Assembly: GCA_030141605.1 (NCBI GenBank)
Contig: JAQGDQ010002367.1
Location: 744,001 to 808,000 of the forward strand
Length of the DNA: 64,000 nt
Direction of reading: 5' to 3'
Source: Tubiluchus corallicola
Taxonomy: Eukaryota > Animalia > Priapulida
Positions within the stretch are counted from its first letter, which is position 1, and each line of letters opens with the position of its first letter. The notes under the pieces were generated by a model, which saw only the letters and a program-made list of their open reading frames with translations, searched no databases and was not told where the DNA came from. Positions 11,341 to 58,013 of the stretch are shown here, piece after piece. The translations under genes were made by a program, and so were the position numbers.

Positions 11341-12812
11341 TTTCCTCTTTGCTCCGTTTCCCTCCCCTCACTTTTTCTCCTCTCCTCCCCTCGTGTAAGC
11401 ATTACTGTTTGCATTAATATGAAATAAAAGATAAACAGACCACTGCAAAGTGCCTGGAGCATCCTTTCGCAACGTAGTCATAGGATCTCTCAAGTATTGT
11501 GTCCTGTGACTCTCTTTTGACCTTGAGAGTCGATAGGATTCTTCCTCTGTTGAAGAGCGGTACACAAGAAAGAGACGTCAAATAGTTTGGCTTAAAACTT
11601 GTGCACAAGGCCAATAACTGGCGGACGGAGAGGCAACGGGAGAAACGGACGAATGAACAAACAGGTACACAGACACACACCGCCAAATGAACTGGCAACT
11701 AAATAACTAAATGAACAGATACAGAGGCAAGTAAGCGGAAGGTGCAGATAAACATATGAACGGGCAGACAGACAGATATGTTGAAAGCTGACTCTTTTAA
11801 AATGTTACTCCGATCTGTAAATAACAGAAAGGTTTTTGTTTTAAATAGCAGGCAGTAATTTGGCTGTAACTTACACCTGTCCTTGAAAGCAGCCAAACGT
11901 GGCTAATTAGCTTTTTTAGAACTTCACTCTGGGGTTTTCCGCGAGTGACAGTTAAAAACAGATTAGCACAGGTAAGAGAGCACGTAACGTGGCTTCGTTA
12001 TACATGAAGCCAATTACAACGTCCTCGAGAGACAAACTTGTCAAAGCAATTTCTATCTCCTGACTGTAATAACTGAAGCCACTAGTAAGATCGCATGCGC
12101 GGAAATGACGATTTGATGAGTGTGTACCTTCTCTTTCTCAAGCGGGCACAATTGCAGCATTATTATAACAATGAGCAGAAAGCTAGCGTCATTTGGAGCT
12201 GAATATGTGTGTGAACCGAAATTTTGAAGTAGTTTAAGCTTGCTATTGGGAAAGTGAAATTAATTTTGTCAATTTTTCAGCTGGCTGTATATGCCAACGG
12301 AAACTTAAACTTTCTTTGAATGGGCCTACTTACTACAAACTATTTTTAGAAAGCTCGTTTGTCAGTGCAACAAGAACTTTTGCGCTTTTAATTAGATTCT
12401 GCGATAAAACAAAATGCCTTTTTGATACGGCTATTTCGACCAAAATTTAGTGATTCTACGAAATGGTAAAGTATGAAATAAAGAAGATTTACTTAAAATA
12501 TCTGTAATGCTGAACTTGCCTGTCAGTTCGCAAACCTTGAATTCTTTGCAAATATCACTAATTTGGTGCTTTTCATGAATTTGTTTGAATCTGGTATTGC
12601 TAAGTGTGATCAAGTAGGCTTGAAACAAAAGAAACTTAAGTAGTGTTCTTTGGAACTCTGCACAAACTGGTTAAAGAACTGCAGAAATGTTCTTTCACTT
12701 AAATGTGGTTTGTTAAAAACGAATTGCGATAAAAGTGACCGTTTTAGATTAAATCAATTTGAGCAGCACAGGAAACAGCCTTTCTGTATCAATTAGGCAA
12801 TTTTCATGAAGC

Positions 12813-13907
12813 ATGGACATTAGATTAGGCAACGACAGTGACATCAGTTCACTTCCCACTGATAACATTCACCGTCATCACGATCATCATCACCTCTCCA
12901 TTGTTACTTTGTACGCAAATTGTCACGGCACAGTCCAAGACGGCAACTGGACAACAAAGGACGTGATGTGGGGAGGTATGTACGGTTTTCTCAGTCTACT
13001 CACCTTCACTGGAAACATCATCAACATTCTAGTATTCTCCTCTACAAAGATGCCATGTTCTGCTTTCAACACTTTCCTTTTGGGTCTTGCTGTATCCGAG
13101 GGAACCCAAGGAGGCGTCTACTTTGTGGAACTGACGGTGGCAACGTATGGACCTAAGCAATGCAATCAGAAAGCCCTCAAGTGCTTAGGTTTAATCGGTG
13201 ACATGGCTACTTACACCGCAACGTGGATAACTGGTCTTATATCTGTGGTTCGGTGTTTGGCTATTGTTAAACCAATAAAGTACAGTAACAGCTACGCGAG
13301 TTCTGCTTTTGCCGTTAAGTCCATTCTGGCTTGTACTTTAATGCTTTCTGTACAGGAGGTTGCCATGTGGATTCATGTGTTTGGTCAGCGATTTGAATCG
13401 GAATTGACCGTTCTAGAGCCCATACGACAGACGTTCGGACGTTTCATACCTATCGGTTTTGCGCTTCTTGCGACTGTCATCTCTGTAGTAAAGATGAAGA
13501 ATTTACACAAAATTCGAGACACCCAGTCAGGCGAAAGAAGCCAGAATTACGTCCTAGGTGCGCAAGGGAGGAAAGCAAAAGACGAGCAAAAGGTAATCCG
13601 GATGCTGCTAGCTTTGCTAACTGTGTTTTTTCTGACCAATGGCTATGCTGCTATCAACATAATCTTACAGGCAACCACTGACATTGAATTCAGTCTTGTA
13701 GTGCTCTGGACAGTTCCATTAGCTTTTGGTTGTAACACCTCAGCTAATATCTTTATTTATTTTATCATGACACCACTTTATAGGAAGGTTCTTTGGCAGA
13801 AATGTCTGTTTTCCAGACGCCACCGCGTTGCTTCTGTGAAAGCACTTTCGAAGCCAGTTCGAGTAAGTCACGTGACTTTCGATAATGGACAAGAAGCTGA
13901 ACTATAA
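12813..13907 (+). CDS. Intronless rhodopsin-like (class A) GPCR, FMRFamide/peptide-receptor-like or chemoreceptor-like
   Basis: 364-aa ORF with about 7 hydrophobic segments. TM1 GNIINILV, TM2 LLGLAVSE, TM3 end ISVVRCLAIVKPIKY (variant DRY), TM6 KVIRMLLALLTVFFL, TM7 NTSANIFIY followed by helix 8 YRKVL. The ligand cannot be inferred. Confidence 0.9.
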   Translation: MDIRLGNDSDISSLPTDNIHRHHDHHHLSIVTLYANCHGTVQDGNWTTKDVMWGGMYGFLSLLTFTGNIINILVFSSTKMPCSAFNTFLLGLAVSEGTQGGVYFVELTVATYGPKQCNQKALKCLGLIGDMATYTATWITGLISVVRCLAIVKPIKYSNSYASSAFAVKSILACTLMLSVQEVAMWIHVFGQRFESELTVLEPIRQTFGRFIPIGFALLATVISVVKMKNLHKIRDTQSGERSQNYVLGAQGRKAKDEQKVIRMLLALLTVFFLTNGYAAINIILQATTDIEFSLVVLWTVPLAFGCNTSANIFIYFIMTPLYRKVLWQKCLFSRRHRVASVKALSKPVRVSHVTFDNGQEAEL

Positions 13908-14179: not shown

Positions 14180-14795
14180 CTTTACACTTTGTTCTCTCCA
14201 CGCCAGGATGCGCATAAAGCTAAGATACCTATTCCCCTTCCAAACTATCTTGCCTTTTGCCACCATTTTTACTTCTTTCCAGGTCCTCCACCCTATACTT
14301 CTCAGTCTGCTTTGCCACTGCTTTGACTTCTTTCCAAGTCCTCCACTCTATACTTAGTCTGATTTGCCACTGCTTTGACTTCTTTCCAAGTCCTCCACCG
14401 TATACTTCTCAGTCTGCTTTGCCACTGCTTTGACTTCTTTCCAAGTCCTCCACTCTATACTTCTCAGTCTGCTTTGCCACTGCTTTGACTTCTTTCCAAG
14501 TCCTCCACTCTATACTTCTCAGTCTGCTTTGCCACTGCTTTGACTTCTTTCCAAGTCCTCCACTCTGTCTTTCTCAACCTACCGCTTTTCTTCTTCATAT
14601 TTTTCCCCTCCCCACTTTCTCTTGTGAGGCCCGGTGTCCACCCAATCGCCGTCTCACACTCGTCTGCACTTTCCCTCAGCAGCAATCCATCTTCTAAGAT
14701 CGTCACTTACTACGATCACTGGTGCCCTGTCCGCCACCTCCCGGTCAGTCACCCAATCCTGCCATCTAATCCTGAGTATCCGTCCCAGGTACTTG
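14180..14795 (-). mobile_element. RTE-type LINE 3' fragment containing an internal tandem array
   Basis: Minus-strand pieces YLGRILRIRWQDWVTDREV, AIGWTP, TWKEVKAVAK and ALCASWRGE are typical of RTE ORF C-termini. Confidence 0.75.
14271..14566. repeat. 55 bp minisatellite, about 5.5 copies
   Basis: Unit acttctttccaagtcctccactctatacttctcagtctgctttgccactgctttg repeated with few changes. Confidence 0.95.
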
Positions 14796-24246: not shown

Positions 24247-26960
24247 TCAATGTTTTTCAAAGATATGAATCGAATTAGCAAGTTTTAAGCTGTTGGATAG
24301 TAAATTTCAAGTTTTTGGTCCAATATTAGAAATGAATTGTTTTACAACAACGGTTCTTAGCTGAATACTCTATTAATTAAATCGAGTATTATATACTTTA
24401 TTATTTATTTAAACCGGATTGTCAAAAAAGTTGGAAGTGAGTTTTAAACATAAAAATTGAAACCTTACTAATATAATATATATATTATACTATAAAAATA
24501 ATATACTAAATCATCAAATTTTAAAATTTTACAGTTTAAAAAGTGGGAGTTATTAACTTCTGCATGTTTGGGCAAATTATATAAAATCCCGATTAGATTC
24601 ATTATACTAGTGGGGTAAAGTTAAACATCCTTACCCGGTGGGGTAAGTTAGACCAAAAAATAACTGAATAATTTAAATAAGGAAATATATAAGGAAATGA
24701 ATAAGGAAAAATAAGGATATATAGTATAACCAACAAAGCAGCACATAGATTTTGACTAACACGGGAAATTGTTCCAGTGTTTTTTGCAATTTTTGTGCTA
24801 ATCATATTCATATTCCAGCTCAAATTATCATTAATTATCGCCCCAAGAAACTTAATTTGGTTAAACATGCTATTTGGCAAATTTGGAAAAAACAGTAGCA
24901 TTCTGAGAATTGAACCTTGTGGAACTCCATGGGCAATTTCTATGGGACTAGAAATAGTATTGTTACTGGTGACAGATTGTAAACGAGTAGATAAGTAACT
25001 CTGAAACCAGCCACAGACAATTCCTCCTCAAAAATAGAGTTTACTCATCAAGATATTAAGTCACAGGCTTTTGACAAGCCATGGAACACACCAGCAGTGA
25101 CAGAATTTTCCTCAATAGTATTCACAAGCTCTTTACATAGCGATACAAGTGCAAGTTCGCTAGAGCATACTTTACGAAATCCAAATTGTTTGGTGTTAAT
25201 TATACTATGCTTTTTCAAATAATTGTTTAGTTGATTGTACACACATCTCTCCAGAAGTTTAGAAAAATTGGCAAGAGTCAAAATGGTCACTAATTATACA
25301 TACAAGTTGAATCACCAGATTTAAATAAAGGCGTGACTAAAGGCTATTTCATTTTATCTGGAACTATGCCTGTACCAAGAGATAGACTGATTATGTAACT
25401 TTGCGGTGTTGTGATATATTGGATAACATCAACAATTATTTTTGGAGAAAATCTATATATATTAGAACTTTTATTTGGATTTAAATTTTTACTTGAGCTA
25501 ACTATATCATCATGAGTAACAGGTTTAAAATAAAAGGAATCTGTGTAATTCCCATAAAGAAATTGATTACATTTAACATCAGTACATTCAATTTGGTTAG
25601 CAAGTTTTGGCCCAATATTAATAAAATAATGATTAAAATTTTCAGAAATCATTTGATTATTCATTACAAATTTATTTTGGATTTTAAGCCTGATGAGTGT
25701 AGAATATTAGATTTATTCATCAATTCCTTTACAGTATTCCAATTTTTTTAGTATTTTTGGCATATAATTCAAATTTCTTTCTATAGTAATTATTTTTTGT
25801 ATGTTTTAATAAATTATTTAATTTGTTATGACATTTTTTATAGTTAGTAGTTTCTAATGTAACACGAGTTTTCATAACAAATTTATATAAACGGTATTTT
25901 GTATGACTGACTTTAATAAACCAAAAGGAATCCAAGGTTTATGGGGATATTTGAATCATTGACAATTTTTTGTTCTTTAATATGTCGTGAGTAAATACTG
26001 CTAAATTTCAGGCGAAACATGTACATACATACATGTATATTAGCATCATTATTACTTAACACATCATACCAACTAACATTACTTAAATCATGTATTAGAG
26101 CATTTTAATGTCATTATGATACACAATTTTATTGCCAGAAACATGAGTGAGTAATGGAAAACACAAATTAGTTAATAAACACACCGGTAGGTGATCAGAT
26201 ATACCTGTTAGAAGAAAACCAGATTAAAAGTCAATCTCAATTGCATTGGTAAATACGTTATCAATAAGTGTGGCAGTGTAATCTGTAACTCTTAGTAGGG
26301 CGAATTATATTTGGGAACACATATTGACATAGCATAGTATTCAAATAATATTTGATATGATCGTGTTCAGAACGGGATAGTAAATTTATACTGAAATCTC
26401 CTAAAAGAAAAATAATTTTACCACTATTATTAACATCAGTCAAAATATTGGACAATTTATCTGTAAATCTTAGAGAAGGCTGTTACCTAGTGGTCGATAT
26501 ATACATCCAAGTACCTTACTTTTATCCTTGTTACAATTAATTTCAATGAATAAAGCATCAATATCATCACCAATAACACAAAGATCATTACATTGGGTGC
26601 ACGAAATATAATCATAAATAAACAGTGCCACTCCACCCCCTTTTTTTATTTTTTCTATTCAGACACAAAAACCTATAGTTGGACAGTATAAACATATGAC
26701 CTTTTTCATTTTTTAACAAAGGTTCGGTAAGTGCGATGACAGGAAACTTAAACTTAATAATTTCCGGGTAAGCAAAAAAATGGTCGAAGTTTGCTTTGAG
26801 ACTACGAACATAAAGATGTATTAAAGTAAAAGGATTATTGGGTAATCCTTTTAGTTCTTTCATCACCCTTTTAACACTAATCAATAATTACTTTTGCGCT
26901 TTGTAATATTATTGTACGTTGTCTGTCAGGATCAATATAACCATCGTAGGGCGCAGAGTA
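24243..26960 (-). mobile_element. Decayed LINE (L2/Crack/CR1 group) with endonuclease and RT, in the inferred ETFRF1 5' intron
   Basis: Fragmented ORFs: APE motifs (IHLYVRSL, IALTE, LLGDFSINLL, TLIDNVF, SDHLPV) and RT motifs (FNHYFINIG, FSKLLER, QFGFRK, LSKACD, GVPQGSIL, KFLGAIINDNLSW). An (AT)n run at 24208-24244 may be the tail. Confidence 0.9.
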
Positions 26961-38000: not shown

Positions 38001-41000
38001 TTTTGCCAAAGAGAATGACCTTGTGTCAGATGTCAAGACCGATCTAGATGTCAAAAATGAGAGTCAGAAAACACAGCGTGTTTATGTTTGGATTATCTTT
38101 TGTTCATTTACAACCCTAACCCACTTGAGCAAGGCGAGGAATCACATCCCTTTATGCCCTCGGGGTGTCTAGACCATTCAGGCAGTGATACAGACAGTGA
38201 GAAGTGTCTCACTAGCTATGCAGTATATCACTCACAAAATTTATAGAGCATATACTATAAATCAGTGAACTCCATCAAGTCTTTTTCTCTAACATACCGT
38301 GTGACCCAAAACAAAATTTAAAAGGGTGGTGGGTTGAAAACCGGAATCTGTAATAAGCAACAGATTATATTTTCAGAGTTAAAGAGGGCTAGACAAAGTC
38401 TTCAAATTTTTGTAAAATTTTAATAGCCGACTGTCAATCATTCTCAAAAACAGTACCTAAAATAGGACGACCTCCTCAGTTGCTATATGTCCCAAAAACT
38501 TATGCGTGTCGCCAGATGGTTTACACACATCTCGTATTTCGGTATGATAAACACGGAGTTAGAAAACACAGCGCCTTTATGTTTACATTATATTTTGTTA
38601 TACTTGATGATAGGTAGGTAATCCTGTCTAGAGAACTCAACTTAATTTGTGGCATTTTGCCTTATTCATACTGGGAGTGAAACAGCTAGATACAGCCTTT
38701 CTTTAATTTTTTAAAGCAGCAGGGGATACATGTAATACATTCATTTCTTTGAATGTTCCTCACCTTGCTGCTGAGTGTATTAGATAGCATCGATGCACTG
38801 CTGTAAATCCCCTAACTCTCATGTTTGACATCTTCAGGATGGCTCTAACTTCCCACTCTAATTCCTTATTCTGACTTGTGTATCAAAAGAGAAACAAGAA
38901 AAAGGAGTTCATGAAGTAGGTTTCAGAACAGTCTTGCTTTAAGTTGCAAGTCACTGTAGTGTGAATATTCCAGAGAAAGCAAACATATTCTTTACAGAAT
39001 GCCAGCTTTTTAGTATGACTGATGAAGAAAGTACTTTGCAATCACCAGTGTGGCTAGCTGTATTGTAGCTGTGATGGTCCCCCATCCAGCAGATTACTGC
39101 AACTAATTATTTTTCACTTTAAGTATTAATCTTAACGGTATCACGAATTGTTTACCTAATGATTGATAATATTGATGTATTGATTTTTATGTTCCAATCT
39201 TGTGCTGCCATCTTTAGTCAAGAGTAGCATTATTTTCGATGAAGTTATCATTAAATGAAGCCTTTTTCTGTTAAGCTACCTTAAATATGTAATTGGGCAG
39301 AAGAAGATGAAATTCGTTTCGTTTCAACATGACTTGTATTTTTCAAGCGAAAATACGTTTAGCAACAATTTTTTCCATGATAATATTATGCCCGTGTTTG
39401 AACAAATGTGAAAGCTTCGTCGCTGTACTACTGAGGTCACTTCACCCAGAACTCGTTTCTGATTGGTCGGCTAGCTTTTGAGGGCTGGATATTAGACATA
39501 TTGGCCTACGTGGCGGGGAGAGTAGAATGGCCGTGTTGAAAAATGGTCTGATATAACTATATCATGGTTTCTTTTACGATGATTGAACAAGAAAATGGAT
39601 GGTTTGTTCATTACTATGTTCTTTTTATTCATTGGTGAACGCTGTTCCTCTTTTGTTGGTGAAACCTCGTCAGTTACGCAACTGCTGAGAGACATTTGTT
39701 AAATTAGGCATTCGTTACATAGCCTAATCACCTCCTCGTTGGATAAAGATATTGTCACCTTTGACTTCACGTTCGATGATCTAAATCGCTTCCGTTCTGT
39801 GTGGGAACTCGGAGGAGATGATCTTCTCATTATCCGATCTCCAGAGACTCTACTACGTGTCCGGCCTGTTGGAGGGAAAGCTGTGTAAACCGAATTCTGC
39901 TGCATTACCACAACGTGCGTGAGGAAGGACCGGTCTTACCCAAGTACTGGAGGAGACCTCGCCTTGTATGCAGGACGTCACGTGAGCGCAAGAAGTATTA
40001 CAATATTCATATGTTACTATGTTATTTGTCAGCTAAATTAGACTGATTCATTGCAGTAACGATGTGGATTTAATTGTTTTACTCAGGTAACGATAATTAC
40101 TTAATGCCTAATATGGGCACATTATGTTCAAATGTTACATTGGTGTCAGAAGTTTTACCGAGTTTAATATTAATAGTATATAATTGATATTGCCTTCCTA
40201 TTAGCACTTAAATGCAGTGGAACTGCTACGTTGGTTGTGAAACTGTCATAATTTTCAACCTGTTGCATAAATATTAGTAATTTGCTTAAACTGATTAAGC
40301 GTCTTGTAAGCTTTTGGTAACTGTGAAAGATATCACGTTAATTCACTGGAATTTTCCCAAGAATTTATTCAGTACAGGCTGTATAATCTAATCTGTTTCT
40401 CTACACTAGGTATAGCCATTTCTAGGTCAATTTTACCTTGCTCATACGTTAGCTTTGCTGCTTGTTTATAAAATCAAGTTGTGAGAAAAATATTTTGTCC
40501 GGGTCGGGCAGATAGCTGGTTCAAGGTCGCCAAAACTTGAACGTGGTTTCGCAGCAGTTATAACAGCAGCGAAAACGGTTTAATAAGATTATTTTTCCAA
40601 ACTTGCTTTTAACATTTCGCATAAATTATTTTTGCCCTGCCAAAAAGTCGGTTGATAGTAGCTAACGCTGATGTGTAAAGTGAGAGTGAGTGAGAGTGGT
40701 TAAACATAGATTTACTCCTTACTTTGTGTACCTACTTGGCAGTCTGTAGTCATCTTGCAAAGTATAAAAATGTCTGATGTTAGATACAAACTTTCAGAGT
40801 TAATGACTCTTAATAAAGAGCAGTTGCAGAATATTGTAGCAGAACTACATCTCTTAGTCGACCCTACTTCGAGACGGGCTGTTTTAATTACTGCCATTCT
40901 CAAGGCCGCGGGTTGCCCTGAAGAGGGAAAACGTGATGAGGGTGCAGAACTTGACACTTTCGACGCGGGTATGAATCAGCCTTTACTATGCGCGGAAGCC

Positions 41001-44000
41001 TCTGACCCGACAGAAGCAGCAAAAACCCCTGATGTCAGTGTGAAACCAAAACATATGATAGTTACAGAGCAGTCGCCAACGCCGACTCCTCGTCGTAGGA
41101 GAACTACAGAGAGAATGACAGACGTTACTTTAGAGTCTCTTTCTACAGTTAACGAAGCTGCTGCTCAAACATTTCTGCAAATTCGACGGTTAGAAGCAGA
41201 AACTGAAGCAAAAAAGTTACAATTAGAGCATGAGCGCATTATGGCCGAGATGGAGTTACGTAAACTTGAATTGACCGCTGCCAGTCCAGTCAGTCAGTCG
41301 CCAATGATGTCACAGGCCAGTCCTTTCTATAGTCGTCAAGCGGACTCTACCGTTGACAAATTAAAGCTCATGAAAATACGTCCCTTTGATGAAACCAAGG
41401 ACGATATACAAAAGTTTCTTGATTGGTTTCAAGCTTGTGCTGCTGCAAACAAGATTGATAGATCAGACTTCGCGGCGTGTATTGGCCCATCTTTGTCTGG
41501 CAGAGCAGCAGACGCGTTTCAGCAGATTCCCGAGTCTGAAATGCGGAACTACACATACGTTCGCAAAGCTTTGCTTGGCGCGTATATTCTAAGCAATGAC
41601 GTTTACCTGGAGAGATTCCGCGGTACAATAAAGCTTAAGAATGAAAGTTATCGCCAGCTTTTCAGACGCTTGGATAATAGTTGGCGCGACTATCTTGAAG
41701 CCATACAAGCCGAGACTTTTGAGACTGTTAATGAAGCAGTAGTAATTGAACAAGCGCTTAGTTTGATGCCACACGATTTGGCCACTTGGTTAAAGACGGA
41801 TAGCATCAGGACAATTGAGAAGATGGCCCAACGGGCAGATCAATTTGTCGCAGCGAGACAAATCACTTCCCTTCCTGGGAAAAATGTTTATTCATTTAAA
41901 AAGACTGGTAAACCCAATGTTGCCACGTCGCAAGGTGAAGGCGCGAGCAATACAAATATGAGCCAGAATCTTGCAACCAAAATGCATTGTTACGCTTGTG
42001 GAAAGCCTGGTCATAGGCGCAGCGAATGTCGATCGCGTTTGGGAACTGAACACGTCATGCGACCTGCTAATGCTGCTGTATTTGGTAAACCTGGCAAACA
42101 ATTGTTTAGCACACCGGAAATAAAGATGCCAAATAATGATGATGATTGGCATCATGTACCTGGCCGAAAACAGCCCGTTGGTTTTACAGCAAAAATTAAC
42201 GGTTACGTGGTAAAAGGTCAAAGAGACACTGGAGCTGGTGTAAGCATGTTACATGCTAAATTCGTTCGCGCTAATCAGTATTTAAATGAACTCCGACACA
42301 AGTTCGTATGCGCGTGCGGTGATATGAGGCAAAGTAAATTAGCGAAGGTTGAAATTATTGGGCCTGGCTTCTCTGGTATTCTGACTGTAAGCGTAAGCGA
42401 TAATTTACCCGTTGACTTTTTACTTGGAAATAATTACGAGTCAGCGTTAAAGCCATTCCCGGAGAATGCTGAAAAAGCTTCAAAATTTAATAAAGAAGTG
42501 GGTAAATACAGCGTTAAACCAAAGAAGAATGCTGCAAGTAAATCACCACCGAAACAAAAGCCTCAATCAGCGACAGATGTGGAGTCAATTTATGCAATAA
42601 CTCGCTCGCAGGCTGACAAGCTAGAAGCTCAAGTCAAGCAGGACACGCTGTTACAACAGCAAGTATTTGATTCGTCAGCATCAAACGATGGATTAGCGGT
42701 TAAGGACTCGCCTGCTGAAGATCAGAAACAACTTCTTGACGTCACAATTGAACAGATCAGCGAAGAGCAAAAAGTGGATGTCACTATACGAAATATTATT
42801 GATAACGCGTGCACAGAAGAAGAGGCATATAAATTAGGCAAAGGGTACTTTTTGCGCGGAGGTGCGTTATTCTATTTATCTAAAGGAAAACGGCACCAAG
42901 CATCTAGGGAGCTGCTTGTACTACCCAAATTTCGCCGCAAGGAAGTTTTACAACTTGCGCACGGAAGTAAATTAGCCGGACACTTGGGCATAAACAAGAC
43001 AACTCGGAGAATTCTTCAAGAATATATATGGCCTCGTCTTAAACGTTCCGTAAGGGAATATTGTCGTTCCTGTCTGACGTGTCAGAAAACAGCGCGTTCA
43101 CGCAGTGCAGACAGAGCCCCTTTGAAACCGTTACCTATTGTAGACACGGCATTTCGTACCATAGGGATGGACTTAATTGGGCCGCTTGATCGTACACCTT
43201 CTGGTAATCGTTGGGCTTTAGTAATAGTGGACCATGCAACACGTTATCCGGACGCATATCCGCTAGTAGATATACAGACTGTCACCGTGTTAAATGCACT
43301 GTTGAAATTCTGTTGTAGATACGGCATCCCTCGCCAAATATTAACGGACTGTGGCACCCAGTTCACTTCAAACTTGACCAAAGAGCTGGAGGATCAGCTC
43401 GGTGTCAAAGGTATTTTCACTAGTCCATACTCACCTTCAACGAATGGACTCGTCGAGAAATATAATGACACGCTAAAGAAGTCTATTTTACGCCTAACAC
43501 AAGATTTCTCGTCTCTTCCCTGGGATCTCGCAATTGATTATGTGCTTTTCTCATACCGTGAAGTTCCACAGGATTCCACAGGGTACAGCCCAAATGAACT
43601 TGTCTTTGGCTACCCAGTACGTGGTCCGCTGACCATGCTTAAAGAGCGATGGGGTTGTTCCAAACCGCCAAGTCTTGAAGATGTCGATGAGTATGTTGCA
43701 CGAGTTATTAATGCATTAGAGACATCGACAGAAGACGCTCATAAATCGCTTCAGGAAGCCAAATTATCCCAGAAACGCTGGTACGACCGGGTGTCAAAAG
43801 AAAGAAGTTTCGAGGTTGGCGATAAAGTGATGGTTCAGAGGATGAGGAAAGGCAAAAAGATGCAACCAGGATGGAGAGGCCCATATCAAATAACAGACAA
43901 AGTATCGGATTGGACTTATAAAGTTTGTTTTGGCAAGAAGGGTAGACGGAAGGACACTAGAATTGTTCATATCAATAAGCTTAAGCAATATGTGTACAGA

Positions 44001-46909
44001 GAGGAGTCCCTGATCCTTAGCAATGAGCTTGGACAATGATGGAACAAACTTGAGTGAAGTTCTAGCATATGGCGTTGATGAAGATGTTGAGGAAGATGAC
44101 ATGTATGATTTGGCAATAATAAACCTCGGCAAAGGAATAGTAGAACCTGGAGGTCTCCCAGATTATGCTTTTTTGCCAACGGCCATTGCCACACAGTCAG
44201 TAAATGATGTCACTTTACCAGACGATCTATCAGAGCAACAACGCACAGAACTTCGTTTTTAACAAGTATCCGGAAATGTTTACGGATTTTCCGCCTACGT
44301 CCTCAGCAGAAGAAGCTACAACAAATATGTGATTTTCCACGGCCACAAACAAAAACTCAAGTACGTAGATTCCTAGGAATGGTGGGCTTCTACAGACGTT
44401 TTATCGAGAACTTCAGCACTATCGCTGCACCTCTGTATTCTTTAACAGAAAAATATTCCCCCACTCAAGTACCTTGGACAGAAGCTTGTGAGAAGAGCTT
44501 TCTTACCCTTCAGAATGCTTTAACTTCTGACAGTGTTCTACATTCCTCTGATTATTCGAAACCATTTATCCTAACTACAGATGCCAGCTTTGTGGGCATT
44601 GGTGGTGTACTCACACAAGATCGTATGAATGGCTTGGGAGAAGTGCCTATCACATATGTCAGTCGTAGGCTTACACCCACCGAAGTCAGATATTCTGTAG
44701 TTGAATGTGAACTTCTGAGTGTTGTATTTTGCATGCAGAAGTTAAATTACTATTTAGAAGGCCGCCAGTTTACATTGCGCACTGATCAAAGAAGTTTGCT
44801 TGCGCTCAGAAAAATGCTTAAGAATAACAATGTGTTACTGGGCACTCATTCTTTCAGAATATTGCTTTACAATTGAGCATATTGCTGGCGCTCAAAACCT
44901 TGTTGCTGATGCCTTAAGCCGGAAATAAATATAAAGCGTCAGAGTATGAAATGCTCAACAAGTTGTAGTACTTTTTCAGTGCTTAAACAAGTTTTTTTTT
45001 GGTGTTATATATCATATATTTGTTTGATGATACATTTGTGGTGTATGATGTAATGATCAATTTGCTTCTTTTTATCTTTGTTTTGTCTGAGTTGAAAAAT
45101 ATGTAATAACTCAGTGAGCTACAAAGTCGTTACTTCTATTCATGTTTGTCATTGCATATGTATGACGTTATCGTATCTTGGCAGTGAAAAATGTTACGTT
45201 TCGTAATCATGATCTTGAAATATTTAATATTCTTTAGGGGAAGGCTCTGTGATGGTCCCCCATCCAGCAGATTACTGCAACTAATTATTTTTCACTTTAA
45301 ATATTTTTCTTAACGGTATCACGAATTGTTTACCTAATGATTGATAATATTGATGTATTGATTTTTATGTTCCAATCTTGTGCTGCCATCTTTAGTCAAG
45401 AGTAGCATTATTTTCGATGAAGTTATCATTAAATGAAGCCTTTTTCTGTTAAGCTACCTTAAATATGTAATTGGGCAGAAGAAGATGAAATTCGTTTCGT
45501 TTCAACATGACTTGTATTTTTCAAGCGAAAATACGTTTAGCAACAATTTTTTCCATGATAATATTATGCCCGTGTTTGAACAAATGTGAAAGCTTCGTCG
45601 CTGTACTACTGAGGTCACTTCACCCAGAACTCGTTTCTGATTGGTCGGCTAGCTTTCGAGGGCTGGATATTAGACATATTGGCCTACGTGGCGGGGAGAG
45701 TAGAATGGCCGTGTTGAAAAATGGTCTGATATAACTATATCATGGTTTCTTTTACGATGATTGAACAAGAAAATGGATGGTTTGTTCATTACTATGTTCT
45801 TTTTATTCATTGGTGAACGCTGTTCCTCTTTTGTTGGTGAAACCTCGTCAGTTACGCAACTGCTGAGAGACATTTGTTAAATTAGGCATTCGTTACATAG
45901 CCTAATCACCTCCTCGTTGGATAAAGATATTGTCACCTTTGACTTCACGTTCGATGATCTAAATCGCTTCCGTTCTGTGTGGGAACTCGGAGGAGATGAT
46001 CTTCTCATTATCCGATCTCCAGAGACTCTACTACGTGTCCGGCCTGTTGGAGGGAAAGCTGTGTAAACCGAATTCTGCTGCATTACCACAACGTGCGTGA
46101 GGAAGGACCGGTCCTACCCAAGTACTGGAGGAGACCTCGCCTTGTATGCAGGACGTCACGTGAGCGCAAGAAGTATTACAATATTCATATGTTACTATGT
46201 TATTTGTCAGCTAAATTAGACTGATTCATTGCAGTAACGATGTGGATTTAATTGTTTTACTCAGGTAACGATAATTACTTAATGCCTAATATGGGCACAT
46301 TATGTTCAAATGTTACAGTAGCATGTCATATTGCTCTAGCCAAGCGAAAAGTGTGACACATATAAAAGACAAGCTTCTCTTTTTACAAGTACACAACTAA
46401 ATTAGAAAACTGTTGTGGTCACCTGATGTGATCTAGTGAATTTATTGTTGAGCTCAGTTACCAGTGATACAGTTAATGATGTAATGTGAATCTTGTGCAT
46501 GTCATTAGATGGTTCTCACTTTTTGCAAAGTTGAGCAGGTACAAAGACTGAGTTTTGTTGAACTTGGCAAACAACAGAAAGGTGGACCCACAGGAGCACT
46601 AGGAGGTGACCGTCCCAGTTCAGCAGCTGGAGAAGAAACAAAGAAGTCGCACAATGTTTCTTTGCAAACTGGTCTTCAACCATTAAATGTTACTTTCAGG
46701 TGTGTGTTATATTTCATGCATTCCAACTTATGCTGATTTAAAGGTTAATAAACTTGTGGCTTTGTTAGTTAGTTGCCAGTTTGTGTCATTATATGTAACA
46801 ATGTATATTGATCCTTAGGATTATCCGACACATGAATATGATATTCATTTCAACCGTGACTTTGTTTATTGCAAACTTTACTAGACGATAATATGGCATA
46901 TGAGAGAGA

Positions 46910-55360: not shown

Positions 55361-58013
55361 TCACGTCGTTGGTACAGTAGGAGATGCCCATGATGGCACT
55401 TGATTGAAATTGAACACATAGTAACCATAGGTATTAGCAAATGTCATGGCTAGCATGATTCCAATAAGATCCATGAATAGGCCAGTTTTTACCTGCAATG
55501 AGCAAAGCATATTTGAAAACAGAGATGTTCTTACGATAGAAGAATCACTTTTAATCACAATTAATTTTTTTCTCCCGAAGAAGTCAAAGCATCCACGTAT
55601 GAAGTAAGAATGACAGGGTTTCGTAACTGCACATCTGAATTGGAACACTTAATGAAACTCACTGAATCTACTAGATTGCTTTGATTTATTTATGTAATCA
55701 ACAGTTGCTTACCATGTCTATCACACGTAGTTCGCCCGTGGCAAAAACAATTGCATTCGGTGGAGTAGCTACGGGTAGAGTAAAAGCAAATGATGCTGTT
55801 ATTGTGACTGGAAACATGAGCAATAATGGACTGACCTGCATTACATTCGCCTGTAAAAAATCAGGTGATGAATAATTTAGTAACACAGGAAATCACTTAC
55901 ATTTTTACGACTGTCGTTGATTTCTAACAGTTAATGACTTTGATTTTTAGTCGTACTTTACTCTTATACTTAAAGCCATTTAATGCTTTTATACCAAAAG
56001 CATTTAGTGTGCATTCAGATGAAGCGAGTTTAACTATTACCGGTATCAAATTTCTCGACAGTCATAACAAATTTAAGCTTAAAAACAATATACTGCAAAA
56101 CAGCAATTAGTCAAATTAATATAGTAAATATACCAATTCTGGAAGCAGAGAAAGAACTATGTTAGCCGTTGCCGTGTTGCTGACAACCTCCGTCATACAG
56201 CCAGTCATTACGCAGCAGATGAGCACGATGACCCAGACGGGTAACGAGCTGAGACTCGTCAGATGAGAACTAATGTAGGTAGCCAAGCCAGATAACTGTA
56301 AACAATGACTATCACTGATCAATTCTGAATGTTAAAACGAGAACTAGCTAGAAATACACGATGAAATAAGACACAGTTTTATATTAAATTGCTTGTTAAT
56401 CATAATGTCGGCATTATTAATATTATTAATAATTACACAAACCCACACTAATTAAATTTTTGATAATCAAACTTGAAAAGATTTTTTTACAAAATCATGA
56501 AAAAGTTGGAATACACCACGAATTTGAACCAGGGGTCTTCTGCTTACAAGGCAGATGCCTTGACCACTAGGTCACCATATTCCCAGGTGATCAAACCAGT
56601 CCCTTTCTGTAGCTTGCCAACAAAATTTAGTAATTACGGTAATAACTACTATTACCTAGGACTAGAGGCGAGTAGCAGGGGGGGCGACAAGGGGCAATCG
56701 TCTCCAGGTGCAAGAGTAAAAGGGTGCAGAATTCTCTTCTAATGACTATTAATGATTAATTACTAATCAGACATTAGCAATTAATAAAAGTTTTCAAATC
56801 ATAGCAAAACAGCATAGTCAGAAATGATCATAGCTGATTTATTTACTACGTACAGTTTAGAAAGAAAGCCAATGTTGTTACTTAACAGCGTGTGTAGGGT
56901 GGTGCACGGGGCTTAGCAGTCTGATAATTTTGGGAAAAACAGTAGCGTCACTCTCTAAATGCCAGTTGTATTACTGTGAAAACCTGTAGTATTTGGTATC
57001 CTTATATTTCATTATCTTTGCATGTCTTAATGCTGGAGCTGAATATTTAAGAATAAGGACTGTCTTATTACGAGCAACTAATACAAAGAAGTGCATTTCT
57101 GACGCAGTACCGCAAATCAAACTCAGGACGATTCTTAGAAAAAAATTTTGTTTACCTTTATCCCGTCAAGTTGAAAAAGAAAAGCCGCCCCCAGGGACGC
57201 AAAAACTCACATAGTCTGTGGCTTCACCCACGAAACAAATGATAAAAACATTAAAGATGTAGGGCTCCAGAGGTTTTTTGTTCCCGGCGCCACAAGCACT
57301 TGGTACGCCACTGCCTAGAATGCTAAAAACATGACATTATCTGCTAAGAGTCTAAAAACAGGACATGCAGCATATACACTTACCTCTACACCCTTGGCAA
57401 GAGCAAAGCCACCACCCAACAGGAAGACTATACCCCACGGCATCTTGTGCTGGACAGTGTGCCAGTCTAACAGTGGCTCTCTAGATTCTGTAAAAGACAA
57501 CCAGCTGGGTAATTCAAAGCATCACCTCAACAAAGATTTAAAAAAGTACTACAGTGGAAGCTCGACTTACAAAAACCCTATTATATGAAAATTCGGAATA
57601 CAAATCGGGCCAAGAAAAAATTTCCGTCCCATTTAACGGAAAAATATTCAAGATACAAAAACGAAAATCGAAAGTGCCGCCCGACAGCGGTCCTCTCAGA
57701 ATGCATTTCGTAGAATTATGTGATCTTATCTCACGCGAACGCATAACCATGGACCCAAAAAATATGAAAGTGATATCCGTTTAAGTGCTATCGCAGGGGA
57801 GTATGAGCGTAACCCTTCGACGATCGGTCATTAACAAACTTTTCAGGTGGGTACAATATTTACACTTTATACGACTGTTTTCGGGGGGCTGGAACGAATT
57901 ACGCCGTTTATATGGTAAATCTTGTCTCATAATACGAAAATTCTAAGATGCAAAAGCACCTCCGGAACGAATTAATTTCGTTCTCGAGCTATCATTGTAT
58001 GATGAAAAAAACA

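What the first reader, a model, noticed from the sequence alone, without database searches (positions are those of the whole stretch)
39070..46317. Young LTR element with intact Gag-protease-integrase but no reverse transcriptase core: possible split or complementation system
Seen: the LTRs differ at only about 5 of 1070 positions and the TSD, PBS and PPT are intact, so the insertion is recent. The 3.27 kb Gag-PR-IN ORF has no lesion. In the next 0.9 kb the RT core is removed (FTDFP fused to LRPQ at about 44292) and there are frameshifts near 44255 and 44835. Inference: several lesions confined to RT/RH are unlikely to have arisen after such a recent insertion. The family probably replicates in this state, supplying capsid, protease and integrase while borrowing RT in trans, perhaps from a partner element. 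Known non-autonomous types (TRIM/LARD, TR-GAG, BARE-2) generally lose all ORFs, keep only Gag, or lose Gag; keeping Gag-PR-IN alone is unusual.
Basis: partly seen in the sequence, partly recalled or inferred. Interest (0 to 1): 0.8.

Follow-up and report, generated by a model that had tools for sequence, protein, structure and literature searches.

The report
RT-deleted copy of Gmr1-like retrotransposon
A young jumping-gene copy in what is likely an animal genome keeps open coat, protease and integrase genes but has lost its copying enzyme; sister copies still carry DNA across that gap, so it was likely copied with a sister's enzyme, a known kind of freeloading.

Summary
This is a 7,248-nt Gmr1-like gypsy element (Gag-PR-IN-RT-RH order) with 1,070-nt LTRs differing at 5 sites, a 5-nt TSD, an open Gag-PR-IN frame with all catalytic motifs, and no RT core. 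The correction: the stop after integrase is itself caused by a small deletion, so there are four deletions (2, 5, 644, 5 nt), all downstream of IN. The family does not mainly replicate RT-less: in 4 of 4 sequencing runs (2 samples, 2 studies) the contigs continue past both breakpoints, one joins them with 645 extra letters, and none carries this copy's junction. The 3' remnant holds 3.8-6.6 times more change than the LTR clock predicts, so the damage likely predates this insertion and RT was likely borrowed in trans from sisters. Selection on Gag-PR-IN after RT loss is suggestive only (8S/7N versus 5S/9N, p=0.46). No complementary partner was seen. Open caveat: the sister's RT stretch is 7-9 codons shorter than in 75 of 75 relatives and its middle was not visible. 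The scan has noted RT-less, integrase-keeping copies in other genomes. A known kind of defective copy; modest interest.

The parts
39065..39069 (.). left target-site duplication (5 nt)
   Evidence: identical to 46318-46322
39070..40139 (+). 5' LTR, 1,070 nt
   Evidence: global alignment to the 3' LTR, 5 mismatches, no indel
40141..40153 (+). primer-binding site (TGG start, 1 nt behind the LTR); primer likely tRNA-Leu (recalled, not tested)
   Evidence: sequence
40770..44039 (+). open Gag-PR-IN frame, 1,089 aa; ends 7-8 codons after a 2-nt deletion
41598..41858 (+). SCAN (capsid C-terminal) domain
   Evidence: PF02023 E 2.9e-08, aa 277-363
41988..42029 (+). CCHC zinc knuckle
   Evidence: PF00098, motif at aa 407-420
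42186..42434 (+). aspartyl protease with DTG
   Evidence: PF13975 E 0.0026, below the curated cut-off; DTG at aa 486
42924..43994 (+). integrase: HHCC, core with D-D35-E, GPY/SH3-like C-terminal domain
   Evidence: PF17921, PF00665, PF22938, PF24626; motifs
44016..44017 (+). lesion 1: 2 nt missing relative to sister contigs, frameshift that ends the long ORF
   Evidence: table 4 and loose ends, 4 of 4 runs
44020..44253 (+). IN-RT linker and start of RT region, out of frame with the long ORF
   Evidence: weak matches to the same region of relatives
44255..44256 (+). lesion 2: 5 nt missing relative to sister contigs
   Evidence: 4 of 4 runs
44289..44291 (+). lesion 3: RT-core deletion; a sister contig has 645 letters where the window has 1 (net 644 nt)
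   Evidence: X3 joint; loose ends at both breakpoints in X1, X2, X4
44292..44825 (+). RT thumb/connection and RNase H remnant
   Evidence: PF17919 E 1.2e-32, PF17917; 33-49% identity to relatives
44829..44830 (+). lesion 4: 5 nt missing relative to sister contigs, frameshift in RNase H
   Evidence: table 4 in X1, X2, X4; loose ends on both sides in X3
44833..44928 (+). RNase H C-terminal piece and stop
   Evidence: tblastn with relatives
45236..45244 (+). polypurine tract (9 purines, 3 nt before the 3' LTR)
   Evidence: sequence
45248..46317 (+). 3' LTR, 1,070 nt
46318..46322 (.). right target-site duplication

Best explanation
This is an RT-deleted copy of a Gmr1-like gypsy family whose commoner form carries DNA across the RT gap; its damage likely arose in a donor copy before this insertion, and its RNA was likely reverse-transcribed by RT borrowed from sister copies. 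Shown: structure, four deletions all downstream of integrase, RT-spanning sister contigs. Inferred: because RT-RH comes last in the Gmr1 order, one frameshift behind integrase leaves a complete Gag-PR-IN protein and frees everything downstream to decay; an open upstream frame likely favoured the donor's RNA being kept and packaged (cis filter), which would explain why only the 3' part is broken. It is a minority form, probably one or very few copies, not the family's way of life.
For: Relatives are single long polyproteins with RT downstream of IN (98 of 150; top hits 1,450-1,680 aa). X3 contig of 1,340 nt joins 44289 to 44291 with 645 letters between; X1, X2 and X4 contigs run on at both breakpoints; depth at 44300-44427 equals exactly that one run-on contig in each of 4 runs, so no junction-bridging contig is laid. 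That contig's depth is about 4-9 times flank depth (rough, depth is no copy number). The four deletion sizes account for the four frames seen in the window. The copy differs from the main contigs by 1.1-1.3% in the ORF and 2.2% in X3's RH piece, against 0.23% per LTR, and both LTRs share states that differ from the contigs, so it descends from a diverged donor. The 906-nt 3' remnant has 8 substitutions not seen in any laid contig (14 against the main contigs) versus 5 in 2,140 LTR sites: 3.8-fold, p=0.017 (6.6-fold, p=1e-4); with the 4 deletions p=6e-4. All 4 deletions lie in the last third of the frame (p=0.011; 0.087 for a cluster anywhere). At 44547 the window has lost a proline found in 11 of 13 relatives. 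Sister variants in the 3' part are synonymous-biased (12S/10N of 22, p=0.01), as expected if RT/RH works in the family.
Against: The sister's RT middle was not visible; its length is 216 residues between two anchors against 223-240 in 75 of 75 relatives measured, and the same X3 contig lacks 1 letter at 44639, so sister autonomy is inferred, not shown. The S/N contrast between Gag-PR-IN (8S/7N, only 15 ORF sites among 40 of 345 rows shown) and the 3' remnant (5S/9N of 14) is not significant (Fisher p=0.46); the sharper 8S/3N versus 1S/7N (p=0.02) rests on a filter that was applied with unequal resolution. The synonymous bias in Gag-PR-IN can date from before RT loss. The LTR clock rests on 5 differences and LTRs can be homogenised. 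bioRxiv 2021.09.06.459136 (Discussion) says cis-targeting has no experimental evidence in Ty1, so the cis filter is inference. No second insertion with the junction was seen.
Confidence: 0.5

Rival explanations
1. Chimera: one template switch between co-packaged RNAs, or later gene conversion, joined an intact 5' part to the 3' part of a decayed copy. The result is a dead-on-arrival insertion with no selection on the RT-less state.
For: All four deletions are clustered in about 1.46 kb of the family form; change density is higher in the RH piece than in the ORF; recombination between competent and defective elements is described for cattle ERVK (PMC10924933, passages) and canid ERV-Fc (PMC6407205, passages).
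Against: The 5' UTR and ORF also differ from the main contigs by over 1%, so the 5' part would have to come from a second minor lineage; no switch point was located.
Confidence: 0.2
2. An ordinary copy that was intact when it inserted and was damaged in place; the LTRs look young by chance or through conversion.
For: One sample of a second study also has an LTR joined to the right flank (X3 contig 46101-46800), so the insertion is not brand new; a cluster of deletions anywhere in the frame has p=0.087.
Against: 0 indels in 2,140 LTR sites and 0 in the first 3,246 nt of the ORF against 4 in the 3' part; substitution excess over the LTR clock.
Confidence: 0.15
3. One reading: a split or complementation system in which the family as a whole lacks working RT and relies on a partner element.
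For: The sister's RT stretch is 7-9 codons shorter than in all 75 relatives measured and one sister contig has a 1-letter loss in RNase H; several joints inside the LTR point to related LTR subfamilies that could be partners.
Against: The 645-letter stretch keeps the frame; depth is roughly even along Gag, IN and RH, and long contigs cover all parts; sister variation in the 3' part is synonymous-biased; no RT-only partner was seen.
Confidence: 0.08
4. Assembly error in the window.
For: None of the four lesions is seen in any laid contig, and one of the samples may be the window's source.
Against: Contigs drop minority variants (most of the copy's substitutions are also absent); 5-nt and 644-nt deletions with a filler base are not typical read errors (own knowledge); LTRs, ORF and flanks are clean (flank contigs 0-1 other letters).
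Confidence: 0.04

Closest known systems
Gmr1-like Ty3/gypsy retrotransposons (bioRxiv 10.1101/2025.03.03.638093, 7 passages seen)
   Same: SCAN capsid followed by PR, IN, then RT/RNase H; best hits are such polyproteins, named ones from a scallop, a sea urchin and a brittle star.
   Different: New family (25-39% identity over the long ORF; best partial hit 49%); this copy lacks the RT core.
Semi-autonomous RLG_Sabrina_SA / RLG_WHAM of wheat (PMC9744471, 11 passages seen)
   Same: Keep a Gag(-protease) frame, lack RT, depend on an autonomous partner with the same PBS and LTR termini.
   Different: They also lack integrase, number in thousands and have diverged from their partner; this copy keeps integrase, is a minority form and is about 99% identical to its RT-spanning sisters.
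Mouse IAP I-delta-1 (PMC1331978, 2 passages), cattle ERVK[2-1-LTR] D-type (PMC10924933, abstract and 12 of 18 passages), canid CfERV-Fc1(a) (PMC6407205, 11 passages)
   Same: Deleted or frameshifted copies spread by trans-complementation from coding-competent relatives of the same family.
   Different: Those are retroviral ERVs with shared lesions shown in several insertions; here only one insertion with the lesions is known, and the kept part is Gag-PR-IN.
TRIM, LARD, TR-GAG, BARE-2 (definitions recalled, not read here)
   Same: Non-autonomous LTR elements with intact LTR, PBS and PPT.
   Different: They keep no ORF, only Gag, or lose Gag; this copy keeps Gag, PR and IN and visible RT/RH remnants.

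Membership tests
LTR retrotransposon | Two direct LTRs with TG...CA ends, TSD, PBS, PPT | tested here: met
Gmr1-like Ty3/gypsy | Gypsy-type domains in the order PR-IN-RT-RH | tested here: met
   IN precedes the RT stub and RNase H remnant; 98 of the 150 best relatives have RT downstream of IN, 6 upstream only
Gmr1-like Ty3/gypsy | SCAN-type capsid in Gag | tested here: met
   PF02023 33.8 bits, above cut-off 27
Gmr1-like Ty3/gypsy | Placement in the Gmr1 clade on an RT or IN tree | not tested
   no tree built; only similarity and domain order
Autonomous element (this copy) | Open RT with YxDD and RNase H | tested here: not met
   no RVT_1, no YxDD, four deletions
Autonomous element (sister copies) | Open RT with catalytic motif | tested here: inconclusive
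   645 letters span the gap and keep the frame, but the middle was not visible and it is 7-9 codons shorter than in 75 of 75 relatives
Established non-autonomous or semi-autonomous family | Several independent insertions share the same lesions | tested here: inconclusive
   no junction-bridging contig in 4 of 4 runs, which shows it is not the majority form but not that it is single; no genome held
Established non-autonomous or semi-autonomous family | Purifying selection on the kept genes after loss of the others | tested here: inconclusive
   8S/7N versus 5S/9N, p=0.46; filtered subset p=0.02 but biased
TR-GAG / Sabrina_SA type | Integrase absent | tested here: not met
   complete integrase with D-D35-E
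Split two-partner system | A partner with the same LTR that keeps RT but lacks Gag or IN | tested here: inconclusive
   no joint skipping Gag or IN at family depth among the 13 joints listed; contigs cannot phase whole copies

The most novel reading that the evidence does not exclude
A young RT-less sub-lineage of a Gmr1-like family has replicated through several rounds while selection kept Gag, protease and integrase intact: a semi-autonomous element that borrows only RT/RNase H, made possible by the IN-before-RT order, and that might supply extra Gag and integrase to a single-ORF family. In its boldest form the sisters' short RT is dead too and the whole family depends on another element.
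Probability: 0.2. Interest if true: 0.6.

Novelty: new member of a known kind. Interest (0 to 1): 0.3.

Why it matters
As it most likely stands, it is one more defective LTR copy moved in trans, in a new Gmr1-like family. It does show a simple rule worth noting: in elements with RT last, a single frameshift behind integrase yields a Gag-PR-IN product, so 'RT-less but integrase-positive' needs no special system. If several insertions shared the junction and Gag-PR-IN stayed under selection, it would give a natural test of which retrotransposon proteins act in cis and which can be borrowed, a question that bioRxiv 2021.09.06.459136 (Discussion read) describes as open for LTR elements.

Tried and rejected
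No whole genome is held, so insertions could not be counted. The junction pattern found 0 matches in metagenome contigs; that collection is unlikely to hold this host, so it says nothing. No RNA holder was listed. No close sister protein was found in three searches, so the sister's RT frame could not be read from a database. 33 of the 150 best relatives have a whole integrase and no RT hit; without DNA context these may be cut or broken copies, so they were not counted as an RT-less class. CpG decay does not explain the copy's differences (2 of 19 sites). Polarising amino-acid differences with distant relatives was informative at few sites. No other copy lies in the window. No structure or complex was predicted: the domains are well known. 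Literature: searches listed no paper whose title or abstract start describes an RT-less Gmr1-like or a Gag-PR-IN-only family; the library lacks most subscription papers and I read only the passages named, so this is weak. A paper on translation-dependent mobilisation of IAP I-delta-1 (recalled) was not held and is not used as evidence. No supplements were read.
Full report
Observation. The element spans 39070-46317. The LTRs are 1,070 nt each and differ at 5 sites with no indel; a 5-nt TSD, a PBS and a short polypurine tract are present. The ORF 40770-44039 encodes SCAN, a CCHC knuckle, an aspartyl protease and a full integrase, with DTG, HHCC, D-D35-E and GPY intact. Behind it lie an RT stub, a thumb/RNase H remnant (PF17919, E 1.2e-32) and no RVT_1 or YxDD. 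The host is likely an animal: the window has an intronless rhodopsin-type receptor ORF and the named best hits come from marine invertebrates.

Identity. The best relatives are 1,450-1,680-aa polyproteins at 25-39% identity. Of the 150 best hits of a full HMMER search, 98 have RT downstream of integrase, 6 upstream only, 33 have a whole integrase and no RT hit, 13 are cut in integrase. SCAN-PR-IN-RT-RH is the order given for Gmr1-like elements (bioRxiv 2025.03.03.638093, passages). No tree was built.

Sister copies. No genome is held. Four runs hold the element (2 samples, 2 studies) and were laid twice; all are contigs, which drop rare variants. One X3 contig of 1,340 nt matches 44158-44289, then has 645 other letters, then matches 44291-44829. 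In X1, X2 and X4 the contigs run on into other letters at both breakpoints. Depth at 44300-44427 equals exactly the one run-on contig in each run (56.1, 1007.9, 35.5, 20.2), so no laid contig carries the window's junction. These depths are about 4-9 times those of flank contigs, a rough figure. Sister contigs also have more letters at three other places: 2 at about 44016 (4 of 4 runs; fully accounted for in X3 and X4, not in X1 and X2), 5 at 44255 (4 of 4) and 5 at 44830 (X1, X2, X4; loose ends in X3). The four sizes account for the four frames seen in the window. So the long ORF ends through a frameshift just behind integrase, and the family's common form spans the RT gap. The RT-less form is a minority; whether it is one copy or a few cannot be told.

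A caveat against this reading. The 645 letters keep the frame but correspond to 216 residues between two anchors where 75 of 75 measurable relatives have 223-240. The same contig lacks one letter at 44639, which the other three runs do not show. The middle of the stretch was not visible. That the sisters have working RT is therefore inferred, from the frame-keeping length and from the synonymous bias of sister variants in the 3' part (12S/10N of 22, p=0.01 against 29% expected; 6S/6N in thumb/RH alone, p=0.10).

Timing. Each LTR has changed by about 0.23% since insertion, but the copy differs from the main contigs by 1.1-1.3% in the ORF and 2.2% in X3's RH piece, and its two LTRs share differences from the contigs. 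It therefore descends from a donor that had already diverged. In the 906-nt 3' remnant, 8 substitutions are seen in no laid contig and 14 differ from the main contigs, 3.8 and 6.6 times the LTR rate (p=0.017 and 1e-4); adding the 4 deletions to the 8 gives p=6e-4. Three of the five LTR differences lie within 7 nt and may be one event, which would strengthen the excess. The damage thus likely predates the insertion, and the copy was then likely reverse-transcribed in trans. LTR homogenisation or conversion of the 3' part would mimic this.

Why Gag-PR-IN is intact. All four deletions fall in the last third of the frame (p=0.011; 0.087 for a cluster anywhere). Differences from the main contigs are 8S/7N at the 15 ORF sites listed (one search showed 40 of 345 rows; integrase is under-represented) and 5S/9N at all 14 sites of the 3' remnant; approximate dN/dS 0.36 and 0.74, Fisher p=0.46. 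Dropping sites where some contig shares the window's letter (4 of 15 and 6 of 14) gives 8S/3N and 1S/7N, p=0.02, but minor contigs were better resolved in the 3' part, so this filter is biased. One remnant change removes a proline found in 11 of 13 relatives. The pattern fits relaxed constraint on RH with constraint upstream but does not prove it, and the upstream bias can date from the autonomous phase.

Mechanism. Shown: structure, lesions, RT-spanning sisters. Inferred: a frameshift behind integrase in a donor copy left a complete Gag-PR-IN protein and freed RT-RH to decay; the donor kept its LTR promoter, PBS and PPT, its RNA was packaged with polyprotein from RT-bearing sisters, reverse-transcribed and integrated here. 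An open upstream frame likely favoured that RNA. Rivals are a recombinant with a decayed 3' part, damage in place, a family-wide partner system and assembly error.

Comparison. Trans-complemented deleted copies are described for mouse IAP (PMC1331978), cattle ERVK (PMC10924933) and canid ERV-Fc (PMC6407205), and Gag-protease-keeping semi-autonomous elements for wheat (PMC9744471); only passages were read. It works like these; it is not shown to be an established non-autonomous family, and it differs from the wheat elements in keeping integrase. Eight searches listed no report of a Gag-PR-IN-only family, weak evidence. Earlier notes of this scan describe RT-less copies with integrase in fungal genomes and a pol-collapsed Gmr1-type family in a ray; unchecked here.

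Verdict. A real, young, RT-deleted copy of a new Gmr1-like family, likely moved in trans by its own sisters; new member of a known kind; interest 0.3. The multi-round, integrase-keeping sub-lineage remains possible (0.2).

Noticed in passing
window 39129 to 40132 (joint in contigs): All 4 runs have a contig that joins the first 60 nt of the LTR to its last 8 nt and the PBS with 9 letters between (depth 25, 591, 17, 12): possibly a short-LTR, TRIM-like relative with the same termini. The shorter side is only 22 letters, so weak. Three of the five LTR-LTR differences (positions 54, 59, 60) lie at this boundary.
   Followed up: no
window 39126-39647 and 45274-46067 (joints): Several other joints inside the LTR and LTR depth above internal depth point to related LTR subfamilies and solo LTRs.
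   Followed up: no
window 44289-44291 and 44639 (X3 contig): The sister's RT stretch is 7-9 codons shorter than in 75 of 75 relatives, and the same contig lacks one letter in RNase H; unexplained.
   Followed up: partly
window 46101-46800: An X3 contig joins 217 nt of LTR to the right flank, so a sample of a second study has an LTR at this site; no empty-site joint is among the 13 listed, which proves nothing.
   Followed up: no
window 38894: Loose ends in all 4 runs mark the edge of another dispersed repeat about 175 nt left of the insertion.
   Followed up: no
window 12810-13907 (+): Intronless 365-aa rhodopsin-family receptor ORF (7tm_1 E 3.3e-10, Srw E 5.1e-10).
   Followed up: partly
window 24602-25706 (-): Two broken frames that by eye resemble a non-LTR retrotransposon RT; Pfam gave no hit.
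   Followed up: partly
window 14246-14627: Tandem repeat with a period of about 55 nt.
   Followed up: no
window 56507-56583 (-): tRNA-Thr(tgt) called by ARAGORN.
   Followed up: no
proteins P0141-P0289: 33 of the 150 best relatives have a whole integrase and no RT hit; context unknown, so possibly cut or broken copies, but Gag-PR-IN products are not rare among predicted Gmr1-like proteins.
   Followed up: partly
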